The position numbers and the translations under genes were made by a program. From an uncultured Bacilli bacterium (GTDB lineage Bacteria > Bacillota_I > Bacilli_A > RF39 > UBA660): 64,000 nt of DNA. Below the pieces are notes generated by a model, which saw nothing but the letters and a program-made list of their open reading frames with translations, did no database searches and had not been told where the DNA came from. This document shows, one piece after another, positions 23,504-30,822 of this stretch. The stretch is from assembly GCA_934085825.1 (NCBI GenBank), contig CAKOHR010000002.1, positions 113,682 to 177,681 of the forward strand, read 5' to 3'. Numbering within the stretch: position 1 is the stretch's first letter; each line of letters begins with the position of its first letter.

Positions 23504-24361
23504 TTATCTTTTAAAAGTTTTAAAATATACATCTTTTAGTCTATCACTTGAAACATGAGTATAAATACCCGTTGTACTTAGATTAGCATGACCTAAAAGC
23601 TCTTGAACAGTTCTAATATCGGCACCATTATTAAGTAGATGAGTAGCAAATGTATGTCTAAGTGTATGCGGAGTCACATGAGTTTTAATTGATATATGTT
23701 TCATAATATCTTTAATAATGTATTCAACTTCTTCAATAGTTAGCTTTTCTCCTTTTTTATTTGTAAATAGATATCCTTTTCTATCTTTGCCATGTAAATA
23801 CATTTCTAGATACTTACTTGCATAGTCACCAAAATATACAATTCTTTCTTTACTTCCTTTACCCATTACTTTAATAGTTTTATTTCTTAAATCTATATCA
23901 TTTATTTTTACATTTACCATTTCTCCTACTCTACAACCAGTTGAATAAAACATTTCAATTAACAATCTTTTTTCCAGACCATCTTCTGTAGATATATCAA
24001 TAGATTCAAGTATTTCTTCTATTTCATTATAGTTTAAATAATTAGGTAACTTTTTTTCTAATTTAGGATTTTTAACATTTAAAAATATATTACTTTTAAT
24101 AAGTCCATTTTCAAGTAAATAGTTATAAAAGGTTCGCAAAGCACTTATTCTTCTAGATATAGTAGTATTCTTTAAATTACATGTATCTAAATATTTCAAG
24201 TATCCTCTTACATGTATATTCTCTATATTTAAAAAGTCTATCTTACGTGAATTTACATACTTAAAAAAATCAGTTAAATCTAACTGATAATTTTTAATTG
24301 TATAATCTGAGTAATTAACTTCATCTTTTAAATAATGTAAGAATTTATCTATTTCTTTCAT
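23504..24361 (-). CDS. Tyrosine site-specific recombinase (XerC/XerD-like)
   Basis: C-terminal catalytic HTLRHTFATHLL...GHANLSTTGIYTHV (R..H..R..Y pattern); 285 aa; N-terminal SAM-like domain. Confidence 0.8.
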   Translation of the reverse strand: MKEIDKFLHYLKDEVNYSDYTIKNYQLDLTDFFKYVNSRKIDFLNIENIHVRGYLKYLDTCNLKNTTISRRISALRTFYNYLLENGLIKSNIFLNVKNPKLEKKLPNYLNYNEIEEILESIDISTEDGLEKRLLIEMFYSTGCRVGEMVNVKINDIDLRNKTIKVMGKGSKERIVYFGDYASKYLEMYLHGKDRKGYLFTNKKGEKLTIEEVEYIIKDIMKHISIKTHVTPHTLRHTFATHLLNNGADIRTVQELLGHANLSTTGIYTHVSSDRLKDVYFKTFKR

Positions 24362-24716
24362 CTTCGTTATCTCTTTCTAATAAAACGTTTTTCAAATTAT
24401 CAAATTTTTCTCTTAACTCTTGGAGTTTTCGTTGATCATATACCATATCACTACGACATTCAGTTATTTCTTGATAATGTACTCCTGGAGTTTTGATTCG
24501 TTCTTCACAGGCTTTGATATCTTGCATTAAATCTACTATTTCCTCATTTATATGCTTTAGTTCATTACCTAGAAGTATTGTAAATTCATGGTTTGTAATA
24601 GGATTCATAAGGGCTACTTCTTCATCGGTTAAATTTTCTGTTTCTTCCATGTGTTCTTTACGATATTCATCAATAAGTATTTTTTGATATTCTTTTGTTT
24701 TTTCATTTAAAGTCAT
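24345..24716 (-). CDS. Hypothetical coiled-coil protein (123 aa), translationally coupled to the recombinase
   Basis: 17-nt overlap with the xer-like start; highly charged; no recognised motif. Confidence 0.4.
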   Translation of the reverse strand: MTLNEKTKEYQKILIDEYRKEHMEETENLTDEEVALMNPITNHEFTILLGNELKHINEEIVDLMQDIKACEERIKTPGVHYQEITECRSDMVYDQRKLQELREKFDNLKNVLLERDNEDERNR

Positions 24717-24718
24717 AT

Positions 24719-25357
24719 TTATTCCGCCTTTTCTACACGTATATAACCCTTTAATTCTTTTTCTAAATTATTGTTTTGATTTTCACTTAAATTAACATAT
24801 GTAACTTTGGCATTCCATTTTTCAAGTTTTTCGCTTTCGGTTGTAAGAAGCCTATTTCTTGTTATATAAAATTTTCCAATAGAGGTTGTAATATCAAATC
24901 CTTTGATAGTGTTTCCTTGACCATCAACAACACTTACATAATTTAATCCTTCAACACTAGTTACTTCATTTCCATCATAATCTTTAACTTCTAATATTAG
25001 TTCTGGTTTTTTTTCACTAGTAGAATAAGTTAGTGTATTACTTTCAATATTTAAATATATGTTGTATTTGATACTGGAAATTTCACTACCTTCTTCACGT
25101 CTTAGATAAGCACTAGCAAATGTTTCAGAGGATAGATTTCCCATTTTATCTTTAAAATTGTTTACATCTGGATATATACCAATTGGATTTCCAGCATCGA
25201 ATAAAATATAATTAAGTGTTGCTGTACTAGTTTCTATTTTAGGTGAAAAACGAGCCACCCGAACCATAGTAAAGTATGCATATGTTGCACCAGTTACAAG
25301 CATTAAGAGTGAAAACACATATAATGCTGTAATAATATTTCTAAATTTTTTACTCAT
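24719..25357 (-). CDS. Secreted protein with a SipW-cognate (TasA/camelysin-class) signal peptide; short paralog
   Basis: N-terminal KK-TM-GATYAYF matches the G(G/A)T(F/Y/W)A(Y/A)F motif of TasA/CalY-class signal peptides. Paralogous to residues 1-210 of the adjacent 524-aa protein. Confidence 0.5.
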   Translation of the reverse strand: MSKKFRNIITALYVFSLLMLVTGATYAYFTMVRVARFSPKIETSTATLNYILFDAGNPIGIYPDVNNFKDKMGNLSSETFASAYLRREEGSEISSIKYNIYLNIESNTLTYSTSEKKPELILEVKDYDGNEVTSVEGLNYVSVVDGQGNTIKGFDITTSIGKFYITRNRLLTTESEKLEKWNAKVTYVNLSENQNNNLEKELKGYIRVEKAE

Positions 25358-25394
25358 TTAATCACCTTTTCTATTTTTTTATAGTAAAAATTGT

Positions 25395-25795
25395 TTCTTT
25401 AACGTAGCATCTACGCATAATGTTCAAAACTTTGTCACTAACTTTTGCTATCGCCACTGCCTCGCCTGCCAACAGTGCAGACGCGGCAGCCTTTTGTTTC
25501 TCTCAAAGCCTACCTCTTCCTTCTCACTCCAGCTGAACTTTGCGCGGCCTGCCCAGCACGCGGACGCGCTGGACAGGCATGACCTAAAGCACTAGTTTAT
25601 TACCATCGGGTCGTCGGCGCTGCCACTCCCCGATACATAAGTTATGGAAGACTCAAGATTGAAGGACGGCCTCACGCCACCACTGCCGTTATCCACATAG
25701 CTGCGGTCCACGAAACCATCGCTGTTCAAAAGGAACGCACTGCGCGGAATGTCCGCATAACGGGAAATAGTCCATTCCCATAAGCCCATAAACAT
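25395..25795. other. ~400-bp GC-rich island (~55% GC vs ~28% background) spanning the last ~65 codons of the 524-aa gene and 210 bp downstream
   Basis: Direct base composition (e.g. 25441-25500 is 34/60 G+C). Codons switch to GGC/GTG/CCG/GCC. An 11-bp GC hairpin (gcctgcccagc / gctggacaggc) sits 3' of the stop with no U-tract. Confidence 0.8.
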
Positions 25796-27166
25796 CCAAT
25801 TTGATGTTGTAGCTGCTCTATAATCTTTTGTTGCATCACTATTATATCCAGGATATGTCCAATATGTTGGATCTGCTGCGTAGCCATAATCACTTACATA
25901 CATTAAACCCATTTTTGCTGTGTATTCTGTAGCATTATCTGTACTATTTGTCGTTACTGGATTTACTATTTCATTTTGATATGCTACATTCATTGCTGCT
26001 TCACCTATTTTTGTCCAAGTGTTTCCCCCAACTTTCCATGTTGTTGTCGCTATTTTATTTGCCCATTCTGTTCCTATATTTGTTATGAAATTTGTGTTTA
26101 AATTTGTTTTATTTAACATGCTTTCACTCCATGTGTTTTTACTTGTTGAGTTATTCCAATAATAGATATTTATTGTTGTCAAACTTCCTTTGTATGTGGA
26201 ATAGCTACTTTTCGAAAATATACTTGGTTTATAATCTCCATCTGTTCCAAGTAAATTACTATTTGCATAATCATATTTGATTACTTTTACTTTATCTCCA
26301 AATACTCCGATTATTCTATACAAATTATCTGTTGGACATGGCGTTGTATTGGTTCCAAAACATACATAGTTATTTGGATTTGCTCCAGCATATCTATATG
26401 AGTTATCTTCTGCTCCATTTGCTAAGCTTGCATCATGATAATACATTCCATTATCTCCTTGTGTTCCTGTGTAAAGTTTTGCTACATGACATGATAATGT
26501 ATTATCATTACAATTTGTGTGTAAAGCATATTTTTCCTTTTGTACCATAACTTTGGCACTCATACTTTTGCCAGCATTGTTATTTTGGCTTGCATCATAG
26601 TTTACAAATGTTACTGCTATATTCCACTGTTCTTCTTTACTTGGTGTTGCTGTTATTTCTCTGTTATTAAATAGTGTTATTACTCCCTTTTTATTTGTTA
26701 TGTCATATCCAGAGATACTTGTACCACTTGCATCTTTTACAGAGGTATGTGTTAAACCAGCAATATCTGTTATTTCGGTTCCTGTGCTATCAGTTACTGT
26801 CATTATTATTTCTGGGGTACTATCATCTATTGAATATGTAAATGTATTATTTTCAATATTTAAATAAACATAATAATGTTCTGTTGCGGTATTAGTCTTG
26901 TTATTGGCTGTTAGATTTACTTTAGCAAAAGTGTTTCCAACTCGATTTCCTTTTCCACTTGCAAAATTATCTTGATCTAGTGTAAAGGAAATAGGATTAC
27001 CTACCGAAAATGTAAATGTATCTACGGTGTAAGATGAAACCTTGATATCTGCAGATTTTGGGTCTCCACCTTGAGCTTTAAAATAGGCATATGTTGCCCC
27101 TACCACTAGTAATACTAGGGTTATTATTGTTATTACACTTAGAATAATTGATTTCTTTTTTGACAT
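25592..27166 (-). CDS. Secreted protein with a SipW-cognate signal peptide and a DUF6273-like C-terminal domain (GVRP motif)
   Basis: N-terminal LVVGATYAYF. C-terminal ...GLWEWTISRY...SAFLLNSDGFVDRSYVDNGSGGVRPSFNLESS resembles the W-W-x-R-S-P...GVRPAL C-terminal module. Promoter TTGAAT-17-TATAAT and an AAAGGAG Shine-Dalgarno sequence. Confidence 0.5.
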   Translation of the reverse strand: MSKKKSIILSVITIITLVLLVVGATYAYFKAQGGDPKSADIKVSSYTVDTFTFSVGNPISFTLDQDNFASGKGNRVGNTFAKVNLTANNKTNTATEHYYVYLNIENNTFTYSIDDSTPEIIMTVTDSTGTEITDIAGLTHTSVKDASGTSISGYDITNKKGVITLFNNREITATPSKEEQWNIAVTFVNYDASQNNNAGKSMSAKVMVQKEKYALHTNCNDNTLSCHVAKLYTGTQGDNGMYYHDASLANGAEDNSYRYAGANPNNYVCFGTNTTPCPTDNLYRIIGVFGDKVKVIKYDYANSNLLGTDGDYKPSIFSKSSYSTYKGSLTTINIYYWNNSTSKNTWSESMLNKTNLNTNFITNIGTEWANKIATTTWKVGGNTWTKIGEAAMNVAYQNEIVNPVTTNSTDNATEYTAKMGLMYVSDYGYAADPTYWTYPGYNSDATKDYRAATTSNWMFMGLWEWTISRYADIPRSAFLLNSDGFVDRSYVDNGSGGVRPSFNLESSITYVSGSGSADDPMVIN

Positions 27167-29982: not shown

Positions 29983-30822
29983 TTATTTTAATAATTTACT
30001 ATTGCTAGTTATTTTATCTTTATTTTCTTTTTCTAATACTTTTAAACTTTTTTCTGGAGTTGGATAATCTTCTGGCATTGTTCCTCCCAGTTCTTTTATA
30101 GTATTTCTTATTTTTTTACCTACTTCGTAGTGCACATCATTTGCATTTACTTCTCCCTTAACATTATCTCTTTTTAATTTTTGTTCTGTTTGAGAAATTC
30201 TAAAAAGATTTGCTATTAGTTCATCACTGCCCATATTATCTAAAATATCTTCTCTATATCTTAATCCTTTTCTTTTGGCAATGTCATTAGCAGCCTCACC
30301 ATTATATAATCCTTTATAACCAGCATTATGAAACTTATCAAAATTCTTTACTCCAGCATCTTTAGCTGCTTGGTTCAAAGAATAATTACCTTTTTTAGTT
30401 AAATTTCTTTGATAAAATCTTTTTTCATCTTCTGTTAAACTAGAATATTCTCTTTCTGAAATTTCTTGTTTTCTAGTTTGAACAGCAAAATATGTTTGTG
30501 CAAGAGCTATCGTCTTCTTTCTTGAATCACCATTTTGAGCAATTAAGTAACATGCATAGCGGGATAATTTATAATCTTCGATTTTTCTTTTTGTTTTAGA
30601 CCCTATTTCGACCATTTTTCCCAAGTGGGAAAAATGGTCATCAATAGCATAATTGCTATTTTTACAAGAAATTGTCGCATTATTAATTACATTATTGAAT
30701 TTATCCCACCTTTTATATTCTAAAACAACCATGAGTTCCCTTGCAAGCCAATAATCATTACCATTTTCATCAACATGTTTTACATTTTCAAAAATACTAT
30801 TATTTAGCATTAATTCATTCAT
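29983..30822 (-). CDS. dinD: DNA-damage-inducible protein D (DinD)-family protein, inserted between xseA and xseB
   Basis: Motifs LSRYACYLIAQNGD, QTYFAVQTRKQE, GYKGLYNGEA, RKGL, ILDNMGSDELIANLFRISQTEQKLKRD and ELGGTMPEDYPTP match the DinD family along its whole length. Confidence 0.7.
   Translation of the reverse strand: MNELMLNNSIFENVKHVDENGNDYWLARELMVVLEYKRWDKFNNVINNATISCKNSNYAIDDHFSHLGKMVEIGSKTKRKIEDYKLSRYACYLIAQNGDSRKKTIALAQTYFAVQTRKQEISEREYSSLTEDEKRFYQRNLTKKGNYSLNQAAKDAGVKNFDKFHNAGYKGLYNGEAANDIAKRKGLRYREDILDNMGSDELIANLFRISQTEQKLKRDNVKGEVNANDVHYEVGKKIRNTIKELGGTMPEDYPTPEKSLKVLEKENKDKITSNSKLLK

What the first reader, a model, noticed from the sequence alone, without database searches (positions are those of the whole stretch)
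25395..25795. Abrupt ~55% GC island covering the 3' end of a secreted-protein gene and its downstream spacer: foreign recombination patch or chimera
GC content roughly doubles within a few bases near 25790. The last ~65 codons of the 524-aa gene switch to GC-rich codons (GGC, GTG, CCG, GCC) and encode the conserved GVRPSFNL C-terminal motif, so the reading frame is intact across the breakpoint. The 210-bp 3' spacer stays GC-rich and carries an 11-bp GC hairpin without a U-tract, which is the style of a high-GC terminator. This looks like a gene-conversion or illegitimate-recombination patch from a high-GC donor homolog. The less interesting alternative is an assembly chimera.
Basis: seen in the sequence. 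Interest (0 to 1): 0.6.

Follow-up and report, generated by a model that had tools for sequence, protein, structure and literature searches.

The report
Orphan DGR variable region with leader
The GC-rich island is the hypermutation cassette end of a surface-protein gene: the variable region written by a diversity-generating retroelement plus that element's conserved hairpin-bearing leader, here left without its reverse transcriptase and apparently frozen.

Summary
Window 25400-25795 is 52% GC against 27% background (z = 6.9), and GC3 jumps from 17% to 61% in the last 64 codons. It is not a chimera, because identical DNA and protein occur in at least 9 independent assemblies. It is not a patch from a high-GC organism either, because all 78 relatives examined, all from AT-rich gut Firmicutes, carry the same GC-rich 3' end.

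The island is the target end of a diversity-generating retroelement (DGR):
- a 103-nt variable region (VR, 25666-25768);
- a GC-rich IMH-like end;
- a conserved coding tail;
- a 192-nt non-coding leader (25400-25591) with covarying hairpins.

I predicted the template repeat by placing A at every position that varied among three VRs. That pattern matched four genomes exactly. One of them carries the full cassette: target, leader, TR, MutS-like gene, Avd, RT. In 17 intact cassettes, 318 of 319 TR-VR mismatches lie at TR adenines.

The window has no TR, RT, Avd or MSL. Its VR is identical in 11 contigs and carries 6 non-adenine mismatches plus a codon indel against the nearest of eight TR types. 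I therefore read it as an orphan, currently static target. This is a new member of a known kind, of moderate interest.

The parts
25592..27166 (-). DGR target gene, 524 aa. It has an N-terminal signal anchor (..GATYAYF), an N-terminal beta-sandwich domain, and a C-terminal DUF6273-like domain that carries the variable region.
   Evidence: ORF. More than 8000 homologs. AlphaFold is confident only for residues ~50-210. Homologs give sub-threshold DUF6273 hits covering profile positions 24-172 and ending at VRPSFNL, and weak camelysin/Peptidase_M73 hits in the N-terminal part.
25666..25768 (-). Variable region (VR), 103 nt, encoding ..ISR-YADIPRSAFLLNSDGFVDRSYVDNGSGG-VRP. A conserved framework is interspersed with hypervariable NNY codons.
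   Evidence: Hypervariable block in protein alignment A2 and DNA alignment A3. A TR predicted from it was found in genomes. TR/VR homology limits come from cassettes. Coordinates. Against the nearest TR there are 19 A-site differences, 6 non-A differences and one 3-nt indel.
25652..25678 (-). IMH-like 3' boundary. GC-rich GGCGTGAGGCCGT is the last stretch shared with TRs. It is followed by CCTTCAATCTTGAG, which TRs replace with the imperfect repeat AGACCTTTATAGTTC (IMH*-like).
   Evidence: TR-VR pairs read directly. The assignment as IMH is by analogy (PMC5758913).
25605..25634 (-). GC-rich inverted repeat inside the coding tail (ATCGGG..GGCAGCGCC..CCCGAT). It uses GC-rich codons for SGSGSADDP.
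   Evidence: Family tails. The outer ATCGG/CCGAT stem is conserved, and the inner stem covaries (AGCGGC/GCCGCT versus AGTGGC/GCCACT). Its function is inferred.
25400..25591 (-). DGR cassette leader. In intact cassettes this non-coding sequence lies between the target stop codon and the TR. Here it is cut off about 20 nt before where the TR would start.
   Evidence: 87% identity over 138-159 nt to the leaders of L006, L019, L020, L009 and L023. Side-by-side leaders. Window 25400-25573 is absent from same-species L002.
25547..25578 (-). Hairpin HP1: 14-bp stem, loop UCCG, starting 13 nt after the stop codon, with no T-tract.
   Evidence: Folding. Thirteen distinct versions were tabulated, with fully compensatory C-G<->T-A changes at stem positions 2, 3 and 8; the C-G at position 8 is private to the window. 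No terminator-like site was found.
25456..25490 (-). Hairpin HP2: outer stem CUGCC/GGCAG and inner stem CGUCUGC/GCAGGCG.
   Evidence: The outer stem is invariant. The inner stem differs between leader types while pairing is kept (GUCUCGC/GCGAGG in the L015 type; UGCGAC/GUCGCA in L039).
25430..25446 (-). Conserved leader motif AAAAGTTAGTGACAAAG (family consensus AAGTTAKYAACAAAA).
   Evidence: Alignment A5 and leaders. Its function is unknown.
25402..25416 (-). Small hairpin HP3 (CGTAG-ATG-CTACG). It corresponds to GGCATTCGTGATGCACGATG just upstream of the TR in cassettes.
   Evidence: This is weak evidence, read from the sequence.
24719..25357 (-). Context only: a 212-aa paralog of the N-terminal domain (39% identity over 210 aa). 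It occupies the place where TR-MSL-avd-RT sit in intact cassettes.
   Evidence: Conserved synteny in L002 and L003.

Best explanation
The island is the target-side module of a diversity-generating retroelement (DGR).

How the system works in intact relatives. The order is: target gene, 103-nt variable region (VR), GC-rich IMH-like end, about 74 nt of conserved coding tail, about 190-230 nt of hairpin-bearing leader, template repeat (TR), MutS-like gene (MSL), avd, reverse transcriptase. The RT copies TR RNA into cDNA and misincorporates opposite adenines. The cDNA then replaces the VR, so AAY codons of the TR become NNY codons in a surface-exposed patch of a DUF6273/C-type-lectin-like domain of a secreted or anchored protein.

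Why it is GC-rich. The non-adenine framework of the TR/VR, the IMH, the tail and the leader hairpins are kept at the nucleotide level. They therefore stay about 50% GC in a 27% GC genome. Adenine-to-N replacement raises the VR's GC further.

The state of the window. Only the target side survives: VR, IMH, tail and leader. The leader breaks off about 20 nt before the TR position, and a paralogous gene follows.

Shown:
- homology of the module to cassettes;
- adenine-specific TR-VR differences in relatives;
- absence of TR, RT, Avd and MSL from the 64 kb;
- covarying hairpins.

Inferred:
- the window's VR was written by retrohoming in the past;
- it is now static (orphan) in this lineage;
- the hairpins serve target recognition and/or transcript 3' end stability.
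For: 1. Homologs that are 66-99% identical are near-invariant on both sides of a ~28-aa hypervariable block, between EWTISR and VRPSFNL. At the DNA level an invariant framework alternates with variable positions.

2. Prediction test. Placing A at every position that varied among three VRs gave TTTCCCGTAATGCGGACAATNNGAACAATGCGTTC. This had 4 exact hits among 185,579 species genomes. L007 shows target-leader-TR-MutS_I(145 aa)-bAvd-like(122 aa)-RT(363 aa; PF00078 E = 2e-13; IGNMTSQ and YMDD motifs).

3. In 17 intact cassettes, TR-VR mismatches are 318 at TR adenines and 1 elsewhere. Loci sharing an identical TR have different VRs: L007/L073/L078/L079/L085/L086, and L087-L091. L087-L090 also share the identical RT protein P0149.

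4. The window's spacer is 87% identical to the stop-to-TR leader of cassettes. HP1 and HP2 are conserved with compensatory changes.

5. All 78 family 3' ends are 42-60% GC.

6. DUF6273, which matches homologs at sub-threshold level and ends at the VR, is a published DGR target domain with a C-lectin-like fold (PMC10743442, PMC11792537). MSL-type cassettes are Architecture D of Wu et al. 2018 (PMC5758913).

7. Evidence for orphan or static status:
- No RT, Avd or MSL (tblastn) and no TR-like copy in the window.
- The VR is identical in 11 contigs (9 + 2), while 3 residues differ elsewhere in the protein. Sister clusters likewise show 0 VR changes.
- The VR has 6 non-A mismatches plus a codon indel against the nearest of 8 TR types. 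These include changes at scaffold positions that are otherwise conserved (V->L in AFxV, S->P).
Against: - The cognate TR for this VR was not found. The A-only signature therefore could not be shown for the window's own VR (19 A-site against 6 non-A differences plus an indel).
- The rest of the genome could not be searched, so an RT/TR elsewhere is not excluded.
- The C-lectin fold was not confirmed. AlphaFold pLDDT is below 50 for residues 215-524, there is no PDB hit, and DUF6273 scores only 16-20 bits against a cut-off of 23.5.
- HP1 lies 87 nt after the VR end and its loop is UCCG. Characterised DGR hairpins lie 4-34 bp downstream and have GRNA loops (PMC3240598).
- The leader keeps its GC content, and HP1 has a private compensatory change. 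That points to continued selection, which is hard to reconcile with a dead relic.
Confidence: 0.85

Rival explanations
1. The module is the same, but it is a live remote target. A DGR (TR-MSL-Avd-RT) elsewhere in this genome still rewrites 25666-25768 in trans, using HP1/HP2 and the IMH as the landing pad.
For: - Remote targets are known for chromosomal DGRs (PMC5758913).
- TR-less relatives L076 and L083 share flanks, have different VRs, and show 0 non-A mismatches to TR type A.
- The window's leader keeps 53% GC and intact hairpins. It also has a private compensatory pair in HP1, which suggests selection.
- The RT family is very abundant in gut metagenomes: 2817 relatives at E <= 1e-30.
Against: - The VR is identical across 11 contigs from independent assemblies, and invariant in the sister clusters at the same locus. 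Cassette-linked VRs differ in every sample.
- The VR has 6 non-A mismatches and an indel against the nearest of 8 TR types.
- The window and same-species L002 differ at framework (non-A) positions and by a codon, so they cannot both be recent copies of one TR.
Confidence: 0.25
2. The 3' module (VR, tail and leader) of this allele was imported by homologous recombination or gene conversion from a cassette-linked paralog of the same gene family. It was not inherited in place.
For: - Window and L002 are 97-98% identical over 21 kb, but the target gene is mosaic. Several 60-nt blocks have only 25-41 identities, and there is a 174-bp leader indel.
- VRs that do not match their adjacent TR (L019, L075) show that modules are exchanged between cassettes.
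- Cluster members differ by blocks of N-terminal substitutions.
Against: - L002 keeps the first 21 nt of the leader, including the start of HP1, and then jumps. That is what a deletion of an ancestral leader looks like, not an insertion in the window.
- No donor copy closer than 87% was found.
Confidence: 0.3
3. One reading: a patch acquired from a high-GC organism's homolog by illegitimate recombination.
For: Only the abrupt composition change itself.
Against: - The same GC-rich end occurs in every relative, all in AT-rich contigs.
- The framework equals a TR that sits in AT-rich genomes.
- There is no match in phage records.
- The non-coding part is homologous to the DGR leaders of the same gene pool.
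Confidence: 0.02
4. Assembly chimera.
For: None beyond the composition step.
Against: - The exact 524-aa protein is on 9 contigs of 20 kb to 1 Mb from separate assemblies.
- L001 is 100% identical over 601 bp spanning both junctions.
- The reading frame and family-wide conservation continue across the step.
Confidence: 0.01
5. The leader is an independent structured non-coding RNA, or the mRNA 3' stabiliser/terminator of the target gene, unrelated to retrohoming.
For: - Two stable hairpins with compensatory changes.
- The leader is retained next to TR-less targets up to a common point, the AAGTTAKYAACAAAA motif.
- The window leader folds better than shuffled sequence (z = -2.5).
Against: - No Rfam family matches.
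- There is no T-tract.
- Among the loci examined here, the leader was seen only downstream of this DGR target family, and in cassettes it leads directly into the TR.
- GC-rich inverted repeats after the VR are a known DGR feature.
Confidence: 0.15

Closest known systems
MSL-type diversity-generating retroelements (Architecture D of Wu et al. 2018, NAR 46:11; the Legionella pneumophila Corby DGR is one example)
   Same: - Related loci carry target-TR-MutS-like-avd-RT on one strand.
- Mutagenesis is strictly adenine-specific.
- The VR lies at the C-terminus of the target.
- The VR ends in a GC-rich IMH-like stretch.
- GC-rich inverted repeats lie downstream.
- Non-adjacent targets exist.
   Different: - The window holds only the target side, with no TR, MSL, avd or RT.
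- The hosts are uncultured AT-rich gut Bacilli/Firmicutes.
- The nearest inverted repeats lie 32 nt (in the coding tail) and 87 nt (HP1) after the VR end, not 4-34 bp.
- The HP1 stem is 14 bp and its loop is not GRNA.
- An 81-82 aa ORF overlapping the RT stop codon is conserved in the cassettes.
DUF6273 (C-type-lectin-like) DGR target proteins of Faecalibacterium and other gut phages ('tentaclins'; PMC10743442, PMC11792537)
   Same: The VR maps to the C-terminal end of a DUF6273-like domain that ends in a GVRP.F.L-type motif. Both come from the gut ecosystem.
   Different: - The match is below Pfam's threshold (16-20 bits against 23.5).
- The protein is chromosomal.
- It has a signal anchor and a camelysin/TasA-like N-terminal beta-sandwich.
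- It is not in a phage context: three scans of viral contigs found nothing.
Bordetella phage BPP-1 mtd VR / IMH / hairpin-cruciform target site (Guo et al. 2011, PMC3240598)
   Same: A GC-rich boundary marks where TR-VR homology ends. Downstream is a GC-rich stem whose pairing, not its sequence, is conserved.
   Different: - In BPP-1 the stem is 8 bp, the loop is GAAA, and it lies immediately after the VR.
- Here the stem is longer and much further downstream.
- Here there is also a second hairpin and a conserved motif, so the whole element spans ~190 nt.
Remote / non-adjacent DGR targets (Treponema denticola TvpA paralogs; Wu et al. 2018)
   Same: A VR-bearing paralog lies far from any RT. 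The family has many paralogous targets per genome (for example two on contig ODUU01000051: L016 and L084).
   Different: Published remote targets are defined by A-only differences to a TR in the same genome. That could not be shown here, and the VR appears fixed.

Membership tests
DGR target locus (variable region) | A VR that differs from a cognate TR only at TR adenines | tested here: inconclusive
   For the family this is met: 318 of 319 mismatches lie at A in 17 cassettes. For the window's own VR no cognate TR was found. Against the nearest of 8 TR types there are 19 A-site differences, 6 non-A differences and a 3-nt indel.
DGR target locus (variable region) | A DGR-clade reverse transcriptase in the same cassette or genome | tested here: not met
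   tblastn with the L007 RT, Avd and MSL finds nothing in the 64-kb window, and no Y[AVMIL]DD motif occurs in a plausible ORF. The rest of the genome cannot be tested. Relatives L007, L028, L039, L005, L006 and L087-L099 have the RT.
DGR target locus (variable region) | A GC-rich IMH at the 3' end of the VR, with a non-identical IMH* after the TR | tested here: met
   VR and TR share GGCGTG(A/C)GG(C/G)CGT and then diverge: CCTTCAATCTTGAG in VRs against AGACCTTTATAGTTC in TRs. The window has the VR form at 25652-25678.
DGR target locus (variable region) | A GC-rich inverted repeat downstream of the IMH | tested here: met
   The tail inverted repeat is at 25605-25634 and HP1 at 25547-25578, both with compensatory variation in the family. 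Position and loop differ from the BPP-1 consensus. The repeat is present in only 34% of DGRs, so it is not strictly defining.
DGR target locus (variable region) | Hypervariability of the VR among otherwise near-identical copies (ongoing diversification) | tested here: not met
   The window lineage has 11 contigs with 0 VR differences. The sister clusters P0002, P0003, P0004 and P0009 also show 0 (one borderline I/V change). The feature is met in cassette-linked relatives.
DGR target locus (variable region) | The VR is displayed on a C-type-lectin (or Ig) fold | tested here: inconclusive
   The AlphaFold model has pLDDT < 50 for residues 215-524. A PDB profile search found nothing. DUF6273, a C-lectin-like fold according to PMC10743442, matches 19 of 52 homologs below threshold, with the VR at its C-terminal end.
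MSL-type DGR cassette (Architecture D) | A small MutS-like accessory gene together with avd, next to TR and RT | tested here: not met
   Absent from the window. Present in related cassettes: L007 has a 145-aa protein with PF01624 MutS_I (27.1 bits, above the 20.6 cut-off) and a 122-aa bAvd-like protein (24 bits, below the 40 cut-off). The window is therefore a derivative of such a cassette, not a cassette.
Intrinsic (rho-independent) terminator | A GC-rich stem-loop followed directly by a T-tract | tested here: not met
   No terminator-like site in 25250-25850 on either strand. HP1 is followed by CGCGCAAAGTT.
Any curated RNA family (Rfam 15) | A covariance-model match | tested here: not met
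   No hit at E <= 1 in window 24500-26800. No hit at E <= 0.1 in cassette loci L006, L007 and L039.

The most novel reading that the evidence does not exclude
The ~190-nt leader (HP1, HP2 and the AAGTTAKYAACAAAA motif), together with the coding-tail inverted repeat, may be a portable cis-acting landing pad specific to this MSL-type DGR family. On this reading it has been copied with the VR to dozens of paralogous surface-protein genes of uncultured gut Bacilli, and it is kept under selection even where TR and RT are absent. The window's HP1 carries a private compensatory C-G pair, which fits continued selection. Such loci would then remain competent for episodic diversification in trans, by a DGR elsewhere in the genome or one arriving by horizontal transfer. 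That would be a target-recognition architecture different from the short hairpin immediately after the VR that is known from BPP-1 and Legionella.
Probability: 0.2. Interest if true: 0.55.

Novelty: new member of a known kind. Interest (0 to 1): 0.38.

Why it matters
It explains a striking compositional anomaly without invoking foreign DNA or misassembly. In very AT-rich genomes, DGR target modules stand out as short ~50% GC islands at the 3' ends of genes, which is a cheap way to find them.

It also documents a large, largely unannotated DGR family in uncultured human-gut Firmicutes:
- more than 2800 RT relatives and more than 8000 target relatives;
- an MSL-Avd-RT architecture;
- a visible decay series, from full cassette to truncated TR, to leader only, to a single hairpin, to nothing.

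Live and frozen targets sit side by side in this family. That makes it a natural data set for asking which cis elements a DGR target needs, and how hypervariable surface proteins become fixed.

Tried and rejected
**RNA and repeat searches**
- Rfam scans of the island and of three cassettes found nothing.
- ARAGORN found no tRNA or tmRNA in the island.
- A search for an internal VR/TR pair inside the island, or a TR copy anywhere in the 64 kb, found nothing.

**Searches of public collections**
- BLASTN of the island against 50,697 phage records gave no match.
- Three scans of IMG/VR viral contigs with VR, tail and TR patterns gave 0 hits. This family is therefore not obviously phage-borne.
- Pfam and NCBIfam on the window protein found nothing.

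**Structure**
- AlphaFold on a 52-sequence alignment failed for the C-terminal 310 residues, so I made no fold search.
- A PDB profile search found nothing.

**Hunt for the cognate TR**
- I searched for RT homologs and made 7 contig look-ups. These yielded further TR types E, F and G, but none matches the window VR's non-adenine framework or its extra codon.
- I tested synteny with the usual cassette neighbourhood (PBP ... L33-EFP-NUDIX). Those genes are not in the window, so the test is uninformative.

**Ideas considered and dropped**
- The adjacent tyrosine recombinase (23504..24361) as part of an inversion or shufflon system. It is a conserved XerC/D-like neighbour in all syntenic loci, and no inverted copies of the module exist.
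- HP1 as an intrinsic terminator. There is no T-tract.

Full report
**1. The observation**

Window 25400-25795 is 52.3% GC. The other 396-nt windows of the 64 kb average 27.0% (sd 3.7, max 40.9), so z = 6.9, and no other such island exists.

The 524-aa ORF 25592..27166 on the minus strand runs through the island in frame. GC3 is 17% in its first 460 codons and 61% in the last 64. The upper step lies at about 25770-25780.

The spacer to the next gene is 234 bp. Of this, 25400-25591 is 53% GC and the last 42 bp are 17% GC.

**2. Not an artefact, not foreign**

The exact protein is encoded on 9 contigs (20 kb to 1 Mb) from separate assemblies. One of them (L001) is 100% identical in DNA across both composition junctions.

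Two syntenic relatives have the same GC-rich gene end:
- L002 is the same species, with 97.3% and 98.4% identity over 11.4 + 10 kb of flank.
- L003 has ~84% identical flanks.

So do all 78 family 3' ends recovered from gut metagenomes, at 42-60% GC.

**3. What it is**

A protein alignment of homologs (66-99% identical) is nearly invariant on both sides of a ~28-residue block between EWTISR and VRPSFNL. That block is different in every lineage. At the DNA level an invariant framework alternates with variable positions, mostly the first two bases of codons. This is the signature of a DGR variable region.

I tested the idea by prediction. Writing A at every position that varied among the three VRs gave TTTCCCGTAATGCGGACAATNNGAACAATGCGTTC. 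A scan of one genome per species (185,579 species) returned four exact matches, in uncultured Bacilli MAGs, 'Clostridium sp. CAG:609' and 'Firmicutes bacterium CAG:460'.

L007 shows the complete cassette on one strand:
- the target 3' end;
- a ~200-nt leader;
- the TR;
- a 145-aa MutS_I-domain protein (PF01624, above threshold);
- a 122-aa bAvd-like protein;
- a 363-aa reverse transcriptase (PF00078, E = 2e-13; IGNMTSQ and YMDD motifs).

This is the MSL-containing 'Architecture D' of Wu et al. 2018 (PMC5758913).

In 17 cassettes with a TR and a matching VR in the same locus, 318 mismatches lie at TR adenines and 1 elsewhere. Loci with an identical TR carry a different VR in each sample. In L087-L090 the RT protein is also identical. 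The family is therefore actively diversifying in human guts.

TR-VR homology runs from ATTTCCCGT to GGCGTG(A/C)GG(C/G)CGT. Beyond that point VRs continue CCTTCAATCTTGAG and TRs continue AGACCTTTATAGTTC, an IMH/IMH*-like arrangement. In the window the VR is 25666-25768.

**4. The non-coding half of the island**

The window's spacer is 87% identical over 138-159 nt to the sequence that lies between the target stop codon and the TR in cassettes (L006, L019) and next to other TR-less targets (L020, L009, L023). It contains the following elements:
- HP1 at 25547-25578.
- HP2 at 25456-25490.
- A conserved AAGTTAKYAACAAAA motif at 25430-25446.
- A small hairpin at 25402-25416.

The homology stops about 20 nt before the point where the TR starts in cassettes. 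A 212-aa paralog of the target's N-terminal domain follows.

HP1 shows fully compensatory C-G<->T-A changes at three stem positions among 13 distinct versions. One of these is private to the window. HP2 keeps its outer stem, and its inner stem changes sequence while staying paired.

The coding tail between the VR and the stop codon also carries a GC-rich inverted repeat with covariation (25605-25634).

No Rfam family matches, and HP1 is not a canonical terminator.

GC-rich inverted repeats downstream of the IMH are a known DGR feature needed for efficient retrohoming in BPP-1. There they have 7-10 bp stems and GRNA loops and lie 4-34 bp after the VR (PMC3240598). Here the distances are 32 and 87 nt, and the HP1 loop is UCCG. 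The assignment of function is therefore an inference.

**5. State of this copy**

The window has no RT, Avd or MSL (tblastn) and no TR-like repeat.

Its VR is identical in 11 contigs, although three residues differ elsewhere in the protein. The sister clusters at the same chromosomal locus likewise show no VR variation among 2-8 member sequences.

Against the nearest of eight TR types (A, B, C, C2, D, E, F, G), the VR has 19 adenine-site differences, 6 non-adenine mismatches and an extra codon. The non-adenine mismatches include changes at scaffold residues that are otherwise conserved.

Window and same-species L002 differ at framework positions, so they cannot both be fresh copies of one TR. 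L002 also lacks window 25400-25573 but keeps the first 21 nt of the leader, which looks like a deletion.

Across the loci one sees a decay series:
1. Full cassette.
2. Truncated TR (L085, L011, L004).
3. Leader only (window, L009, L014, L020).
4. HP1 only (L031, L057).
5. 21 nt (L002).
6. Nothing (L003).

I therefore read the window as an orphan target whose VR was written by retrohoming in the past and is now fixed. A DGR elsewhere in the genome cannot be excluded. The preserved GC content and the compensatory change in HP1 argue that the leader is still under some selection.

**6. The protein**

The N-terminus is a signal anchor ending in GATYAYF. AlphaFold models a confident beta-sandwich for residues ~50-210, and several homologs give weak camelysin (Peptidase_M73) hits there.

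The C-terminal ~170 residues of 19 of 52 homologs match DUF6273 below threshold, over nearly the whole profile, ending at the VR. DUF6273 is described as a C-type-lectin-like DGR target domain in gut phages (PMC10743442, PMC11792537).

The fold itself was not confirmed here.

**7. Verdict**

The GC island is a DGR target module in an AT-rich genome. It is a new member of a known kind of system, not foreign DNA and not a chimera. Interest is moderate. The mechanism is textbook. The less-charted parts are the size of this gut Firmicute DGR family, the long structured leader that travels with targets, and the coexistence of live and frozen targets.

Noticed in passing
L007 3234-3479; L087 4582-4827; L093 4567-4815; L097 2625-2867: An 80-82 aa ORF overlapping the stop codon of the reverse transcriptase is present in every cassette examined. 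The one copy scanned against Pfam (L007) has no hit, and no Pfam hit is on record for the others. It may be a further accessory gene of this DGR family.
   Followed up: no
L009, L014, L020 (about 170-260 nt after the target stop codon) and L085 (inside the TR): The same AT-rich sequence (TGTTAAAATAAAAAYTGAYAGAAATRTCAATGT..TTGATAAT) abuts the DGR leader or TR at different truncation points in four loci. It looks as if one element or neighbouring region repeatedly replaced the rest of the cassette.
   Followed up: no
L019 and L075: The VR of the cassette-linked target does not match the adjacent TR. L019's VR fits TR type C2 with 1 non-A mismatch, although a type B TR follows it. L075's VR has 9 non-A mismatches. 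This suggests cassette parts are shuffled by recombination.
   Followed up: partly
L004 2720-2900 (- strand): The TR-like hit is intact for only ~55 nt. It then continues as the 3' end of another target-like reading frame (..VHSVFSLTSSVTYVEGDGTKNLPIRIN*), giving a TR/target hybrid. L011 likewise keeps only a decayed TR start.
   Followed up: no
window 24719-25357 (-): A 212-aa gene immediately downstream is a paralog (39% identity over 210 aa) of only the N-terminal signal-anchor and beta-sandwich part of the target protein. It is conserved in syntenic L002 and L003.
   Followed up: partly
window 29983-30822 (-): A 279-aa Bro-N domain protein (a phage-associated domain) sits between the large and small subunit genes of exonuclease VII. 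L003 has an unrelated 249-aa ORF, without a Pfam hit, at the same place.
   Followed up: no
L023 about 1465-1494; L056 about 1100-1145: These metagenome contigs end in Nextera adapter sequence (CTGTCTCTTATACACATCT...), so the contig ends are artefactual.
   Followed up: no
window 26461-26520, 26110-26160, 25990-26049: Inside the target gene, blocks of low identity and indels against same-species L002 (25-41 identities per 60 nt) interrupt ~97% identical DNA. The gene is a recombination mosaic outside the VR as well.
   Followed up: partly
L091 5050-7760: In a 1.18-Mb contig, two IS elements (rve-type and ISL3-type transposases) follow directly after the DGR cassette. In L087-L090 a PDDEXK_2 gene and L33/EF-P follow instead.
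   Followed up: no
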